Source: a virus. From it: DNA of 64,000 nt. Shown in pieces: positions 16,004-19,590 of this stretch; position 1 is the first letter of the stretch, and every line of letters begins with the position of its first letter. Below the pieces are notes generated by a model. That model did not search any database. It worked only from the letters and a program-made list of their open reading frames with translations, and was not told the origin of the DNA. Where the stretch lies: the IMG/VR virus record IMGVR_UViG_3300017780_004980, positions 1 to 64,000 of that record. The stretch is one strand, 5' to 3'. The translations under genes and the position numbers were made by a program.

Positions 16004-16355
16004 TGTTCCACTCCTTCCGTAGAGCTGTGATCGTGTGGCTCAAGGCCTTCTGAGAAGCCGGGTCCTTGAACTTGAGCCGGTTGGTCCGGGCATACAAAAG
16101 CGATCCGATCAGACGGACCTGACGCTGACTGAAAAGGGCTCCCCGCTTGTACGTGCCGTACACGGTCTCGGGGATCGCGCCCCTGTTATAGAGATCATAC
16201 AGAACGTAGCGGTCAACGCCATAGAGAACAGACACCTCTCGTAGCGTCCAGCACGGGGTTTTCAGGCCAGTGTCTGGATGGAGCCGGAAGCTGTTCGGAA
16301 CCGGCATGGCCTTGCGGCTTTCGCCCAGGCCGTGCTTGTTCTTATTGCGCCCCAC
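15909..16355 (-). CDS. MerR/excisionase-like HTH DNA-binding protein
   Basis: WTLREVSVLYGVDRYVLYDLYNRGAIP...RGALFSQRQV; GTG start after GGAG. Confidence 0.6.
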   Translation of the reverse strand: MGRNKNKHGLGESRKAMPVPNSFRLHPDTGLKTPCWTLREVSVLYGVDRYVLYDLYNRGAIPETVYGTYKRGALFSQRQVRLIGSLLYARTNRLKFKDPASQKALSHTITALRKEWNNDQERKGGDDGAVRRWAYEAEKRERRALDPG

Positions 16356-17688
16356 TGTACATCTCCATCTCGACCACCTCGGCACCGATGCGCGTGTAGA
16401 ATTCGTCTCGGGTGCGGACGTATCCCTTGAACACCGGGCTGTCGTCGTCGACCAAATCGAAGACAATGGGCTTCTTCTTGTCCGGATACTCCCGCAGGAT
16501 ACGGCCGACGATCTGCTCGATGTTGGCCAGTGGGGCCGCAAGGATGCAGGTGTCGATCCAGGGCGCGTCGGTGCCCTCGCCCATCTTGCCCGGCGTCGCC
16601 AGGATGATCTCGCAACCCAAAGCGTGGTCGAGAGCCGGGCCGCTCATGGCGCCGTAGTAGTGGCCGATCTTCGAGCGGGGGACGCCCGAGGCCACCAGCA
16701 TACGCTCCAGGAATTCCAGGTGCTCGATGGTGCTGGAGAAGATCACCAGCCTCCGGCCGCGCTCGAAGGTCTTGAGCGACAGGTACGTGATCAACTGGTT
16801 TCGGACCGGGTCCTTGAACAGCATGTTGACGACGTGCCCGGCCCGCCCGGGGCTGTGCGGGATACGCTTGAAGCCGTCAGCGGTCTTCTGCCGGGGGCAG
16901 GTCCAGCCCGTCTTGTAGCGCATCACCTTCGGCTTCATCGGGACCTGGGCCGCCTTGACCCGGACGCGACCGATGTGGGCGTTGAAGACCACCTCCTTGC
17001 CGTCCACCCGCTTCGGGGTCGCCGACAGGCCGAGACGCAGCTTGGAGGGGAACATGGCCGCAGCCCGGCTGAAGGTGTCCGCACCCAGCCTGTGGCACTC
17101 GTCGAAGACCACCATGCCGAACAGGGTGCGGATCGCCGGCGGATACCGGCCAGGGATGGTCAGGGACTTGATCGAGGCGACGACCACCTTCTTGCCGTAG
17201 ACCTGGCACTTGTCTTGCTGGATCAAGCCGATATCGGACGCCTTGAGGTCGGTGAACTGGATCAGCCTTTTGATCCATTGCTTCACCAGATCGTCCTTGG
17301 TGCAGACGATCAGCGTGAAGACCCCGATCTCGTCGATGATCTTCGAGGCGACGACGGTCTTACCGAAGCCGGTGCCGGCCTGGATGATGTGGCTCTCGTC
17401 GTTCCGCAGAAGCTCCAGGCTCTCGTCGACGACGCGCTGCTGCTCCTCGGATCGGGCCACGAACTTGGAGCCCAGCTTCACCGGGTGGCCGTTGACCCGT
17501 TGGTCGTTGGGCCCCTTGGGGCAGGTCATGCGGGGCAGGAAGATGGTCTTCCCGTCCGCCGACACCTCGTACAGGTGCAGGACGTCTCCGAACCGGGAGG
17601 TCGTCGTGTACTTGGCCTTGATGGCGTCGGTACACGGATAGGCGGCCATGGCGCCATACGCCAAAGGGGCTTCGAGCATTTTCATCAT
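16342..17688 (-). CDS. superfamily 2 DNA helicase (UvsW/SSL2-like)
   Basis: GTGFGKT, DECH, GLSATP, QIVGRILR motifs. Confidence 0.93.
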   Translation of the reverse strand: MMKMLEAPLAYGAMAAYPCTDAIKAKYTTTSRFGDVLHLYEVSADGKTIFLPRMTCPKGPNDQRVNGHPVKLGSKFVARSEEQQRVVDESLELLRNDESHIIQAGTGFGKTVVASKIIDEIGVFTLIVCTKDDLVKQWIKRLIQFTDLKASDIGLIQQDKCQVYGKKVVVASIKSLTIPGRYPPAIRTLFGMVVFDECHRLGADTFSRAAAMFPSKLRLGLSATPKRVDGKEVVFNAHIGRVRVKAAQVPMKPKVMRYKTGWTCPRQKTADGFKRIPHSPGRAGHVVNMLFKDPVRNQLITYLSLKTFERGRRLVIFSSTIEHLEFLERMLVASGVPRSKIGHYYGAMSGPALDHALGCEIILATPGKMGEGTDAPWIDTCILAAPLANIEQIVGRILREYPDKKKPIVFDLVDDDSPVFKGYVRTRDEFYTRIGAEVVEMEMYSGAQ

Positions 17689-18194
17689 TGGACGTGCTTC
17701 CAGACCCAACCCTTGACTATACGTTGGATCATAGACCGATCCACGCCGTACTTTTTAGCCAAAATCTTGTACCCCCCGAGGCCGTCCGTGTGATCCTTCC
17801 GAATTGATTTCACGATCTCGGAAGTCAGCTTGGTCGCGTGGTCATCGCCTAGAGAAAACCGGCCTCTTTCCAAGCAGTCAGCGACGTTATCAGCCTGGGT
17901 TCCGCGCAACAGGTGACCCGGGTTTATGCAGCGGGGGTTGTCACAGGTGTGGCGAACCACCTGCCCTTCCTTAATCGGCCCATTGAACGCCCGATAGGAG
18001 GCCCTGTGCGCGTATTGCGTTTTTCCACCCACACTGGTTTTAGCGTAGCCGTTCTTAAAAAGGCCGAGGTTCCAATTCCAGCAACCATTTTCGGCGATTG
18101 TTGAATTCTCAGCCAATCTAATTCTAAGGGCCGCTCTTTTTTCAGCCCGGGTCGACGCCCCGTAAGCCAGGGGCGCTTCAAGCATCTTCATCAT
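17685..18194 (-). CDS. HNH homing endonuclease with C-terminal HTH
   Basis: CWNW..AHRASY..VRHTCDNPRCINPGHL..GTQADN; lower GC than neighbours. Confidence 0.92.
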   Translation of the reverse strand: MMKMLEAPLAYGASTRAEKRAALRIRLAENSTIAENGCWNWNLGLFKNGYAKTSVGGKTQYAHRASYRAFNGPIKEGQVVRHTCDNPRCINPGHLLRGTQADNVADCLERGRFSLGDDHATKLTSEIVKSIRKDHTDGLGGYKILAKKYGVDRSMIQRIVKGWVWKHVQ

Positions 18195-18217
18195 GTTGAG
18201 GCGCCCCCTTCGGCGAC

Positions 18218-18712
18218 CTAGTTGTTGAGCGCCACCAGCATCGTGTAGCGCAGGACCGGGGTGTCTTCGTTGGACAAGGCGAAGATCGAGACCTTGATCG
18301 GTCCGACGATCACCATGTGGAGCAGCGTGTGCGGGCTGATCCCTTTCTTCACCGCCCCGTCCAGCACGGCCAGATAGGCGTCCTGACTGGCCCGGTCGCC
18401 GTCCTTGGCGAGCTCGAACAGGTCCAGGGCCATGCTGTCGGCGTACCAGGCGCCGGCCTCCTTCATTTCGGACAGCAGACCATGGGTGGCCTGAATGTCC
18501 GTGGAGACCTCGGCCTGCCTTTCCGGCCAGGTTTCAGCCGTGCCGAAGGTGACCTTGTAGTCGAACTTCCAGGTGTCCGCCGCCTGGTTCATGGCGGAGA
18601 TCAGCTCGACGACGGCCTCGGGGGTGAGCGCCCATTCCTCGGCGACACGCTTGTCCATCGGGAAAGACAGGAGGCGCCGGTTGACGCCTCCCAGATCGGT
18701 TTCCTCCATCAA
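18218..18712 (-). CDS. hypothetical protein
   Basis: 164 aa, coupled to the SSB gene. Confidence 0.75.
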   Translation of the reverse strand: MMEETDLGGVNRRLLSFPMDKRVAEEWALTPEAVVELISAMNQAADTWKFDYKVTFGTAETWPERQAEVSTDIQATHGLLSEMKEAGAWYADSMALDLFELAKDGDRASQDAYLAVLDGAVKKGISPHTLLHMVIVGPIKVSIFALSNEDTPVLRYTMLVALNN

Positions 18713-19590
18713 AAATCAATTTCGCTTTCGAGCGCCGCGCCGCCGGTGCCAGCCATGCTGGAGCCGATGGTCTTGCCCGACGCCTTCACCCCGAGAGCGA
18801 GGAGCTCCGCCCGGTTGTAGTAGGTCAGCTCCTTCTCCATCTCGGCCGGGACCGCGAGGTCCTCGTAGGTGGCCTTCAGCTTCGAGAGCGGGGTCTTCTC
18901 GACGAAGATGAAGCTGTCACCGACCGACGGCGACTTCTCGCCCCCACGGCTGACTTCGAACGTGCAGCCGGCCAGGCCGCCCTGCTTCGCCGCGTGCTTC
19001 TGAAGCAGGTTCAGGGTCGACCGCTTGAAGGCGAACAGCTTCTTCGACTGCTGGATCACCTGACCCGCCTTGTCGCCGTTCTTGATCGTGTACGGCGTGT
19101 GGTCGATGATCGTCAGGGCGCACATGAGCGTGGCCTCGTCTCCGCCCTCGCAGAGCGGGCAGGGCTCGTCCTGGGCAATGCAGACGAAGTTGCGGCGCTT
19201 GCCGGCGACGAAGATGTAGCCGTGCTCCTTCCACATCGGGACGTCCAGGCAGCCCTCGGCGTCGAGGTGTCCGTCCAGGAACGTGATCTTGTAGTCCTTG
19301 CCGCAGTTATCGGCGCCGATGAAGAACCGCCAGAGCTGGTCACGCTCGGCCTTCTTCGCCTCGGCTTGCACCTCGGCCTCTTGCAGCGCGGCCTTCGCAG
19401 CGGCGCCCTTCTTCAGGAAGCTCATTCCCGTTTTCGCTTTCGTGTCGGAGGTGTCAGGGGCACTGGTCGCCTTGGAGGCCGTGGTCTTGGTGGCGACGGA
19501 GGCTTCCTCGGAAGCCGTGTTCTTGGCGGCGGTCTCGCTGGCCAAGGTCGTGAAGGTGGGCTTCTTGGCGCCCGAAAGGTTCAGAGGCAT
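18709..19590 (-). CDS. single-stranded DNA-binding protein (gp32-like)
   Basis: H..C..CPLC zinc site, OB-like strands, acidic tail ending ESEIDF, replication context. Confidence 0.75.
   Translation of the reverse strand: MPLNLSGAKKPTFTTLASETAAKNTASEEASVATKTTASKATSAPDTSDTKAKTGMSFLKKGAAAKAALQEAEVQAEAKKAERDQLWRFFIGADNCGKDYKITFLDGHLDAEGCLDVPMWKEHGYIFVAGKRRNFVCIAQDEPCPLCEGGDEATLMCALTIIDHTPYTIKNGDKAGQVIQQSKKLFAFKRSTLNLLQKHAAKQGGLAGCTFEVSRGGEKSPSVGDSFIFVEKTPLSKLKATYEDLAVPAEMEKELTYYNRAELLALGVKASGKTIGSSMAGTGGAALESEIDF

What the first reader, a model, noticed from the sequence alone, without database searches (positions are those of the whole stretch)
17650..18194. HNH endonuclease captured the helicase N-terminus and supplied a recoded replacement
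Seen: both the HNH gene (18156-18194) and the downstream helicase (17650-17688) begin MMKMLEAPLAYGA, yet 9 of the 10 non-Met codons differ synonymously (ATG ATG AAG ATG CTT GAA GCG CCC CTG GCT TAC GGG GCG versus ATG ATG AAA ATG CTC GAA GCC CCT TTG GCG TAT GGC GCC). The HNH stop overlaps the helicase start (ATGA). Inference: an intron-less homing element inserted after codon 13, took over the native RBS and start, and restored the helicase with a diverged 5' end that resists cleavage and deletion by recombination.
Basis: partly seen in the sequence, partly recalled or inferred. Interest (0 to 1): 0.72.

Follow-up and report, generated by a model that had tools for sequence, protein, structure and literature searches.

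The report
Homing endonuclease rebuilt helicase gene start
A selfish HNH nuclease gene sits inside the start of a phage helicase gene, uses the helicase's own first 13 codons as its start, and brought a differently spelled copy of those codons that keeps the helicase whole; this layout is known from fungal mitochondria, but there at the other end of the gene.

Summary
The HNH ORF (17685-18194, minus strand) and the SF2 helicase ORF (16342-17688, minus strand) both begin MMKMLEAPLAYGA. The two 39-nt copies differ at 9 positions, all silent, and the HNH stop overlaps the helicase start (ATGA).

- **The 13 residues belong to the helicase.** More than 50 homologues share the motif, and none of 42 HNH homologues has it.
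- **The HNH is foreign.** Its GC3 is 0.62 against about 0.9 for the phage, and the low-GC3 tract runs on through about helicase codon 19.
- **Relatives lack it.** About 60 related loci have primase-gp293-helicase with no HNH. One related phage (L015/L016) has an HNH_3 gene abutting the helicase start with no duplication.

Best reading (about 0.6): a free-standing homing endonuclease gene entered together with a donor allele of the helicase 5' end. Its left junction formed in frame after resident codon 13. The resident start now drives the HNH, and the imported 5' end restores the helicase.

Resistance to cleavage and to repeat deletion is plausible but untested. No close relative was found, so no empty allele could be compared. 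The closest precedent is the mitochondrial mobile-ORF gene hybrids (Allomyces, Glomus), which are mirror images of this. I rate it a new variant of a known kind.

The parts
18218..18712 (-). gp164, the upstream ORF (164 aa). It has native-like composition and is specific to this lineage.
   Evidence: GC3 is 0.89. It has no Pfam family and no tblastn match in 80 related loci.
18195..18217 (-). 23-nt leader with a Shine-Dalgarno-like AAGGGGG. This is presumably the resident helicase translation-initiation region, now serving the HNH ORF.
   Evidence: Sequence. In the predicted RNA fold the SD is paired.
18169..18208 (-). Predicted RNA hairpin. GGGGGCGC, which includes the SD, pairs with GCGCCCCU of codons 7-9 of the upstream copy, and the start codons lie in the loop.
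   Evidence: the 86-nt fold has -36.1 kcal/mol, z = -2.63, and 3 of 200 shuffles fold as well. The equivalent region at the helicase start has z = -0.03.
18156..18194 (-). Upstream 13-codon copy (MMKMLEAPLAYGA). It is a remnant of the helicase 5' end fused in frame to the HNH body.
   Evidence: It is a disordered tail in the HNH model, with pLDDT below 50 for residues 1-8. No HNH homologue has it.
17685..18155 (-). HNH body: an HNH_3 / His-Me finger nuclease followed by a C-terminal helix-turn-helix. It is a compositionally foreign gene.
   Evidence: Pfam HNH_3 scores 40.4 bits against a cut-off of 24.8. PHROG 59 HNH endonuclease, E = 6e-32, and an HTH PHROG over residues 117-162. All 14 invariant family columns are kept. 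The top Foldseek match is I-HmuI, 1u3e. GC3 is 0.62.
17877..17951 (-). Catalytic/zinc core of the HNH (residues 82-106: H82, C84, D85, N86, C89, N91, P92, H94, N103, D106).
   Evidence: These columns are invariant in the 23-sequence alignment A2.
17685..17688 (-). ATGA overlap of the HNH stop and the helicase start (translational coupling inferred).
   Evidence: In L015/L016 the homologous HNH overlaps the helicase start as TGATG.
17650..17688 (-). Downstream 13-codon copy, the working N-terminus of the helicase.
   Evidence: P8 is invariant and G12 and A13 are conserved in at least 90% of 24 helicases. In the helicase model residues 1-10 have mean pLDDT 88, with strands at 10-11 and 14-18.
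17632..17688 (-). Helicase codons 1-19, the low-GC3 tract continuous with the HNH. Inferred to be the donor-derived 5' end.
   Evidence: Codons 2-19 have GC3 0.60 and the next 60 codons about 0.95. The maximum-likelihood change-point puts the end at helicase codon 19 (support range 8-24). 'HNH body only' is 4.5-6.4 lnL units worse. Seven HNH-less high-GC3 relatives show no such dip.
16342..17688 (-). SF2 (ResIII/DEAD) helicase gene of the replication module.
   Evidence: Pfam ResIII E = 2e-23. There are 936 homologues at E <= 1e-20, typically 445-460 aa. Synteny is primase-gp293-helicase.

Best explanation
A free-standing HNH homing-endonuclease gene (HNH_3 nuclease plus a C-terminal helix-turn-helix, I-HmuI-like) has invaded the 5' end of the phage's SF2 helicase gene. 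The incoming DNA was the endonuclease gene together with the first 13-19 or so codons of the donor phage's own helicase. In the donor the endonuclease stop already overlapped the helicase start, as is still seen in L015/L016. On the right, the insert joined by homologous exchange within the first 20 or so helicase codons. On the left, it joined illegitimately but in frame after resident codon 13, probably at or near the endonuclease's break site. Three consequences follow. First, the resident ribosome-binding site, start codon and 13 codons now open the HNH ORF, replacing the HNH's own lost N-terminus. Second, the donor-derived 5' end, coupled through ATGA, re-creates a complete helicase. Third, the two copies encode the same peptide but share only 30 of 39 nt, because they come from two lineages in which the helicase was under purifying selection. 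That divergence should also remove the cleavable target from the occupied allele and reduce loss of the insert by repeat recombination. What is shown: the duplication, the helicase origin of the peptide, the foreign composition of the HNH plus the helicase 5' end, absence of the HNH from most relatives, and an HNH at the same spot in one relative. What is inferred: the donor/recipient history, the illegitimate left junction, translational coupling, endonuclease activity and immunity.
For: - **Duplication.** It is exact at the protein level and all 9 differences are silent.
- **Helicase origin of the peptide.** The motif ..PLxYGAMAxYP.. is conserved in more than 50 helicase homologues, with P8 invariant. 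It is structured in the helicase model, absent from 42 HNH homologues, and a disordered tail in the HNH model.
- **Foreign composition.** HNH GC3 is 0.62 against 0.88-0.95 for neighbouring genes. The low-GC3 tract is best bounded at HNH codon 5 to helicase codon 19; excluding the helicase 5' end costs 4.5 lnL. Seven HNH-less high-GC3 relatives show no 5' dip: mean difference -0.01, sd 0.08, against about -0.35 here.
- **Relatives.** About 60 related loci have gp293 directly followed by the helicase. L015/L016 carry an HNH_3 gene (35% identity, also GC3 0.62 against 0.85) abutting the helicase start with a stop/start overlap and no duplication.
- **Nuclease looks intact.** The catalytic core is complete and the best structural match is I-HmuI.
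- **Precedents.** One-sided homing with illegitimate junctions is documented for T4 (review PMC2988022). Mitochondrial mobile ORFs carry a foreign gene end and leave the native end as a diverged duplicate (PMC3630166).
Against: - No close relative exists in the collections searched (the best helicase match is 66% identical), so neither an empty allele nor a donor allele could be compared.
- The GC3 argument for the helicase 5' end rests on about 15 informative codons. Among this phage's own genes, 6.5% have an equally low N-terminal GC3.
- 13 of 13 identical residues together with silent divergence at saturation level is a mild coincidence for two independently evolved alleles. The nearest relative shares only 9 of 13 residues. 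Nine of 10 differing codons has P = 0.006-0.125 even under fully independent codon choice. This leaves room for selection on the DNA sequence itself.
- The upstream copy cannot be assigned compositionally to resident or donor.
- The contig is a metagenome assembly, and the junctions were not checked against reads.
Confidence: 0.6

Rival explanations
1. The duplication arose within one lineage as two identical 39-bp repeats. Silent changes then accumulated under selection on the DNA itself, to escape self-cleavage of the re-created target and RecA-mediated deletion between the repeats. This is true 'recoding'.
For: Nine of the 10 codons that can differ do differ. That is at or beyond the expectation for fully independent codon choice (expected 4.9-6.9; P(>=9) = 0.006-0.125), with no amino-acid change. 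The phage encodes its own RecA, so 39-bp identical repeats 507 bp apart would be unstable. A perfect downstream copy followed by codon 14 onwards would re-create any target that spans the junction.
Against: Several of the changes would have gone towards codons that are rare in this phage (AAA 0.09, CCT 0.07, TAT 0.16, TTG 0.16). The low-GC3 tract continues past the repeat to codon 19 (TAT17, TGT19), which recoding of the repeat does not explain. No simple mechanism gives a perfect 39-bp duplication flanking the insert. If changes had also fallen in the unconstrained HNH copy, some should be non-silent.
Confidence: 0.2
2. The 13-residue peptide is kept on both proteins because it works on both, for example as a tag that docks each of them to a replisome partner, or as a translation-initiation module. 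The silent-only divergence would then reflect purifying selection on both copies after an old duplication.
For: There are no amino-acid differences despite near-saturated silent divergence. Both genes lie in the replication module.
Against: The copy on the HNH stops in the middle of the conserved helicase motif and in the middle of a predicted beta-hairpin (strands 10-11 and 14-18). It is predicted disordered on the HNH. No other HNH of the family carries it, and the HNH at the same site in L015/L016 does without it.
Confidence: 0.08
3. Assembly artefact: a chimeric join of two co-occurring strains, one with and one without the HNH, in the metagenome assembly.
For: The record is a metagenome-assembled viral genome, and reads could not be examined.
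Against: The junctions share no repeat long enough to mislead an assembler. The join is exactly in frame and supplies a start codon to an HNH ORF that otherwise has none. The contig closes with direct terminal repeats and is rated 100% complete.
Confidence: 0.04
4. The HNH ORF lies in a self-splicing intron, an intein or a translational bypass, so that one continuous helicase is made across it.
For: Phage HNH genes often sit in group I introns. Homologous helicases elsewhere carry inteins.
Against: Rfam has no match on either strand of 16300-19000 at E <= 1. The HNH ORF ends in a stop codon and has no Hint/intein domain. A complete helicase ORF with the conserved N-terminus already starts at 17688, so splicing would duplicate the peptide. 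The 507-nt distance is far beyond known bypassing.
Confidence: 0.02

Closest known systems
Mobile-ORF (mORF) gene hybrids of fungal mitochondria: Allomyces macrogynus atp6 and Glomus sp. atp6, atp9, cox2, nad3 (PMC3630166, which cites Paquin et al. 1994)
   Same: An endonuclease ORF is inserted in phase in a host gene and carries a foreign copy of the displaced gene end that completes the gene. The native end survives next to it as a duplicate. The duplicates are well conserved as protein but only 64-81% identical as DNA, compared with 77% here.
   Different: There the C-terminal end is replaced, and the native remnant lies downstream and is often untranscribed. The enzymes are LAGLIDADG or GIY-YIG and the genome is mitochondrial. 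Here the N-terminal end is replaced in a phage, the enzyme is HNH, and the native remnant is put to use as the endonuclease's own translation start.
Intronless homing by free-standing endonucleases of T4-type phages (Seg and Mob proteins), with co-conversion of flanking markers
   Same: An HNH nuclease plus DNA-binding domain sits as a free-standing gene tucked between genes. It is sporadically present among relatives, its spread is expected to carry neighbouring donor sequence, and the occupied genome is protected by sequence differences at the target (review PMC2988022). L015/L016 show this plain arrangement next to the same helicase.
   Different: Classical cases leave no duplication and do not fuse the endonuclease to the target gene's first codons. 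Activity and homing are not shown here.
[quoted passage not shown]
   Same: It provides the mechanism proposed for the left junction: homology on one side only, with the other junction formed at microhomology.
   Different: That is an experimental intron system. The original paper is not in the library and could not be read. No microhomology can be assessed here because the donor sequence is unknown.
T4 mobA plus the gene 60 bypass insert as a mobile cassette (own knowledge: Bonocora et al. 2011; located through but not read)
   Same: A phage HNH endonuclease travels with a piece of sequence that alters its own target in the occupied gene while the host protein is still made.
   Different: There the protective piece is a 50-nt untranslated gap that ribosomes skip. 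Here it is an alternative spelling of 13-19 codons plus an ordinary restart.
Genes in pieces created by endonuclease insertion (Aeh1 nrdA split by mobE; own knowledge)
   Same: An HNH gene inserted inside an essential phage gene without loss of function.
   Different: There the host protein is made as two polypeptides that assemble. Here the helicase is made whole and only a 13-residue remnant is left on the endonuclease.

Membership tests
HNH (His-Me finger) homing endonuclease, HNH_3 / I-HmuI type | HNH_3 domain above the curated threshold | tested here: met
   PF13392 scores 40.4 bits against a cut-off of 24.8, residues 61-104. PHROG 59 'HNH endonuclease', E = 6e-32.
HNH (His-Me finger) homing endonuclease, HNH_3 / I-HmuI type | Catalytic and zinc-binding residues retained | tested here: met
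   All 14 invariant columns of a 23-sequence family alignment are present (H82, C84, D85, N86, C89, N91, P92, H94, L95, G98, N103, D106, R112, G49).
HNH (His-Me finger) homing endonuclease, HNH_3 / I-HmuI type | Fold like a solved HNH homing endonuclease, with a separate DNA-binding domain | tested here: inconclusive
   The model has pLDDT 87.7. The top Foldseek match is I-HmuI (1u3e) with probability 1.00, but E = 2e-3 and TM = 0.34; I-PpoI comes next. The C-terminal HTH is supported by PHROG 517. A sequence search of the PDB found nothing.
HNH (His-Me finger) homing endonuclease, HNH_3 / I-HmuI type | Sporadic presence at a fixed site among related genomes, and foreign composition | tested here: met
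   It is absent from about 60 syntenic loci and present next to the helicase start in L015/L016. GC3 is 0.62 against about 0.9 here, and 0.62 against 0.85 in L015.
HNH (His-Me finger) homing endonuclease, HNH_3 / I-HmuI type | Site-specific cleavage of the endonuclease-less allele and super-Mendelian inheritance | not testable with these tools
   This needs purified enzyme and mixed infections. The host is unknown.
mORF-type gene hybrid (endonuclease carrying a replacement gene end) | Endonuclease ORF inserted in phase within a host gene, flanked by two copies of the gene end | tested here: met
mORF-type gene hybrid (endonuclease carrying a replacement gene end) | The copy that completes the gene is the imported one | tested here: inconclusive
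   Composition places helicase codons 1-19 with the HNH, but this rests on about 15 codons. 6.5% of the phage's own genes have an equally low N-terminal GC3.
mORF-type gene hybrid (endonuclease carrying a replacement gene end) | The displaced copy matches the allele of close relatives that lack the element | not testable with these tools
Group I intron with an internal endonuclease ORF | Ribozyme core recognisable by a covariance model | tested here: not met
   No Rfam match at E <= 1 in 16300-19000 on either strand.
Intein | In-frame insertion without a stop codon, with Hint splicing blocks | tested here: not met
   The HNH ORF ends in TGA and has no Hint/intein Pfam domain. True inteins in homologous helicases look quite different.

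The most novel reading that the evidence does not exclude
The element is a self-contained knock-in cassette: a phage homing endonuclease that always travels with an alternative spelling of its target gene's first codons. It expresses itself from the resident gene's start signals and keeps the essential helicase alive by stop/start coupling. The near-maximal silent divergence (9 of 10 codons) would then be the product of selection on DNA sequence, against self-cleavage and against RecA-mediated loss, rather than a by-product of ancestry.
Probability: 0.2. Interest if true: 0.75.

Novelty: new variant of a known kind. Interest (0 to 1): 0.55.

Why it matters
It shows in one locus how a selfish nuclease gene can enter the coding sequence of an essential phage gene without an intron or intein. 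It borrows the host gene's start and brings a replacement gene end. If the silent differences do protect against cleavage and deletion, this is a natural example of the design used in engineered gene drives and knock-ins, where a recoded, cleavage-immune rescue copy is linked to the nuclease. For phage genomics, it warns that short duplicated gene starts next to HNH genes mark recombination boundaries and hybrid genes. It also extends a layout so far described for the 3' ends of mitochondrial genes to the 5' end of a phage gene.

Tried and rejected
- **Intron.** An Rfam scan of 16300-19000 at E <= 1 found nothing.
- **Intein or bypass.** Rejected because of the stop codon, the missing Hint domain and the 507-nt distance.
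- **Closer relatives, for an empty or donor allele.** Single-protein scans of viral and metagenome contigs found none. Degenerate patterns for PLAYGAMAAYP(C) had no hits in either collection.
- **Apparent overlapping helicase segments.** Those flanking inserts in L037, L064/65 and L071 looked like further duplications but are inteins in single long ORFs.
- **Other genes in the gp293-helicase gap.** The ORFs there in L013, L027, L031, L050, L054 and L064 had no tblastn match to the window's HNH, and none has a duplicated helicase start.
- **HNH tree.** It does not resolve whether the window's and L015's enzymes are sisters.
- **Codon-usage likelihoods.** They cannot assign the upstream copy to resident or donor.
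- **Homology beyond the 39 nt.** None was detectable. A repeat finder failed on strand syntax and was replaced by that alignment.
- **PDB sequence search with the HNH.** No hit.
- **Parker et al. 1999.** The paper is not in the library.
Full report
**Observation.**
On the minus strand, a 169-aa ORF (17685-18194) is followed by a 448-aa ORF (16342-17688). Both begin MMKMLEAPLAYGA. The stop of the first overlaps the start of the second (ATGA, 17685-17688).

A degenerate pattern for the peptide matches only these two places, with none expected by chance. No other pair of ORFs in the 97.8-kb genome shares a start peptide.

The two 39-nt copies differ at 9 positions: eight at third codon positions and one CTG/TTG first position. 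All are silent. Nine random substitutions never left the peptide intact in two million trials. Nine of the ten non-Met codons differ. Similarity stops at the edges of the 39 nt.

**What the genes are.**
The window is part of a complete 97.8-kb viral genome with direct terminal repeats.

The downstream gene is an SF2 helicase (ResIII/DEAD). It sits in a replication module with a DnaG-type primase, an SSB-like protein (gp293; PHROG 17226 of unknown function, plus a weak hit to an SSB family) and a RecA.

The upstream gene is an HNH_3 endonuclease with a C-terminal helix-turn-helix.
- It keeps all 14 invariant residues of its family.
- It folds confidently (pLDDT 87.7).
- Its best structural match is the homing endonuclease I-HmuI, followed by I-PpoI, though with a modest TM-score.
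- Its homologues in isolated phages are annotated mainly as HNH or homing endonucleases, for example gene 7.7C of Citrobacter phage CR44b.

**Whose peptide is it?**
The helicase family has 936 homologues at E <= 1e-20, typically 445-460 aa. It has a conserved N-terminus of the form ..PLxYGAMAxYP... P8 is invariant, and G12, A13 and Y17 are conserved in at least 90% of 24 sequences.

In the helicase model the first ten residues have mean pLDDT 88. Residues 10-11 and 14-18 form strands, so the 13|14 boundary falls inside a structured element.

None of the 42 HNH homologues carries the peptide. In the HNH model residues 1-8 have pLDDT below 50, and there is no secondary structure before helix 16-29. 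The alignment suggests that the peptide replaces the first few residues of an ancestral HNH N-terminus.

The 13 residues are thus native to the helicase and are an appendage on the HNH.

**Evidence for an insertion.**
Neighbouring phage genes have GC3 of 0.88-0.95. The HNH has 0.62.

In about 60 related viral loci the order is primase-gp293-helicase, with only a short gap before the helicase. The window has two extra genes there. One is gp164, which has native-like composition and no homologue in those loci. The other is the HNH.

One related phage, sampled twice as L015 and L016, carries an HNH_3 gene (35% identical; GC3 0.62 against 0.85 in its neighbours). It lies directly against the helicase start, with its stop overlapping the start (TGATG), and there is no duplication. 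That is the plain free-standing arrangement, and it shows that this family of enzymes colonises this exact spot.

A second HNH_3 gene elsewhere in this genome (74092-74535) is equally foreign in composition and is also wedged between two genes by overlaps, again without duplication.

**Which copy came with the element?**
The low-GC3 tract does not end at the HNH stop.
- Helicase codons 2-19 have GC3 0.60, with AT-ending codons at positions 3, 6, 8, 11, 17 and 19. The next 60 codons have about 0.95.
- A two-state maximum-likelihood change-point places the start of the tract between the end of gp164 and HNH codon 17. It places the end between helicase codons 8 and 24, with the best solution running from HNH codon 5 to helicase codon 19.
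- Confining the tract to the HNH body costs 4.5 lnL units compared with extending it to helicase codon 19, and 6.4 compared with the best solution.
- This is not a general N-terminal effect of the family. Seven HNH-less relatives with high GC3 show no dip (mean difference -0.01, sd 0.08, minimum -0.13; about -0.35 here).
- It is only moderately unusual within this phage: 6.5% of its genes have an equally low N-terminal GC3, on crude start calls.

I conclude, with moderate confidence, that the helicase's present first 13-19 or so codons arrived together with the HNH. The upstream copy cannot be assigned by composition. However, it sits directly behind a leader with a Shine-Dalgarno-like AAGGGGG, as a native gene start would. 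In a predicted hairpin the leader pairs with codons 7-9 of that copy (z = -2.63). The downstream start shows no comparable structure.

**Mechanism proposed (inferred).**
- **Donor layout.** A donor phage had the layout seen in L015: the HNH stop overlapping the start of its own helicase.
- **Break and right junction.** After a break in the recipient's helicase 5' end, the right side was repaired by homology within the first 20 or so helicase codons. This copied the donor's 5' end and the HNH.
- **Left junction.** The left side had no matching flank, because gp164 is lineage-specific. It joined illegitimately after resident codon 13.
- **Documented mechanism.** One-sided homing with junctions at microhomology is documented for T4 (review PMC2988022).
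- **Why in frame.** An in-frame join would be favoured because the essential helicase, which lacks a strong ribosome-binding site of its own, is reached by ribosomes that start at the resident signals and terminate at ATGA.
- **Why only silent differences.** The two copies differ only silently because each evolved as part of a working helicase in its own lineage.
- **Side effects.** The occupied allele no longer contains the recipient-type sequence across the junction. The repeats are also too dissimilar (runs of identity of at most 8 nt) for efficient recombination by the phage's RecA.

**Caveat and main rival.**
Thirteen identical residues together with silent divergence at or beyond saturation is a mild coincidence. 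The nearest known relative shares only 9 of the 13 residues. Even if codons were drawn independently, nine or more differing codons has P = 0.006 (phage usage for both copies), 0.06 (phage against HNH-like usage) or 0.125 (uniform usage).

Selection on the DNA itself, meaning true recoding after an initially perfect duplication, is therefore not excluded (about 0.2). Against it:
- several changes go towards codons that are rare in this phage;
- the low-GC3 tract continues beyond the repeat;
- there is no simple route to a perfect 39-bp flanking duplication.

Three further readings are less likely.
- **A shared functional tag (about 0.08).** The copy on the HNH cuts the conserved motif and a predicted hairpin in half and is predicted disordered.
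- **An assembly artefact (about 0.04).** The exact in-frame join supplies the only start codon of the HNH, and there is no repeat at the junctions.
- **An intron, intein or bypass (about 0.02).** There is no Rfam hit, the ORF ends in a stop codon, and there is no Hint domain.

**Comparison with what is known.**
The closest precedent is the mobile-ORF gene hybrids of fungal mitochondria (Allomyces atp6; Glomus atp6, atp9, cox2, nad3). In those, an endonuclease ORF enters a gene in phase and carries a foreign copy of the C-terminal gene end. The native end is left as a duplicate that is 64-81% identical in DNA but conserved as protein (PMC3630166).

The present case is the mirror image. It involves the N-terminal end, a phage and an HNH enzyme, and the displaced native remnant is reused as the endonuclease's own translation start. 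In the literature searches made here I found no description of this for a phage. The searches were limited and some key papers are not held.

It also relates to intronless homing with co-conversion (T4 Seg/Mob), to the mobA/gene 60 cassette, and to genes in pieces. It differs from each of these as listed under Closest known systems.

**Verdict.**
I rate it a new variant of a known kind, with interest about 0.55.

**Limits.**

Noticed in passing
genome 74092-74535 (-), outside the window; L008:1486-1929: A second HNH_3 + HTH endonuclease gene (35% identical to the first). It is also compositionally foreign (GC3 0.63 against 0.87-0.91 in its neighbours). It is wedged between a 315-aa and a 207-aa ORF by a 4-nt overlap upstream and an 8-nt overlap downstream, with no duplicated gene start.
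   Followed up: partly
L015:2992-3483 (the same sequence in L016): The HNH next to the helicase in this related phage has no ATG or GTG start. Its homology begins right after the TGA stop of gp293 and in the same frame, and the first possible start is a TTG nine codons in. It may depend on reinitiation or readthrough from gp293, so here too the endonuclease lacks its own translation start.
   Followed up: partly
L037:2187-4571, L059, L077 (Walker A site); L062-L065, L071, L063 (DExH site): Homologous helicases in related phages are interrupted by in-frame inserts at two sites. L037, L064/L065 and L071 were read through as single long ORFs and look like inteins. For L059, L062, L063 and L077 this is inferred from the BLAST layout only. 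Two database homologues carry intein Pfam domains (P0002, P0012). This helicase therefore attracts several kinds of selfish element.
   Followed up: partly
window 18169-18208 (-): A predicted hairpin pairs the Shine-Dalgarno-like GGGGGCGC of the HNH leader with codons 7-9 of the upstream copy (z = -2.63). The spelling of the downstream copy could not form it. It may throttle translation of the HNH, and through coupling that of the helicase.
   Followed up: partly
window 18218-18712 (-): gp164 lies between gp293 and the helicase module. It has no Pfam family, only a marginal PHROG hit, and no counterpart in 80 related loci. Its composition is native-like. In several relatives the same gap holds other unrelated small genes, so this junction is a hot spot for accessory genes.
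   Followed up: partly
window 18709-19590 (-): gp293 is conserved next to the primase and helicase in nearly all related loci. It belongs to PHROG 17226 (unknown function) and has a weak hit to an SSB family, so it is a likely but uncharacterised replication protein.
   Followed up: no
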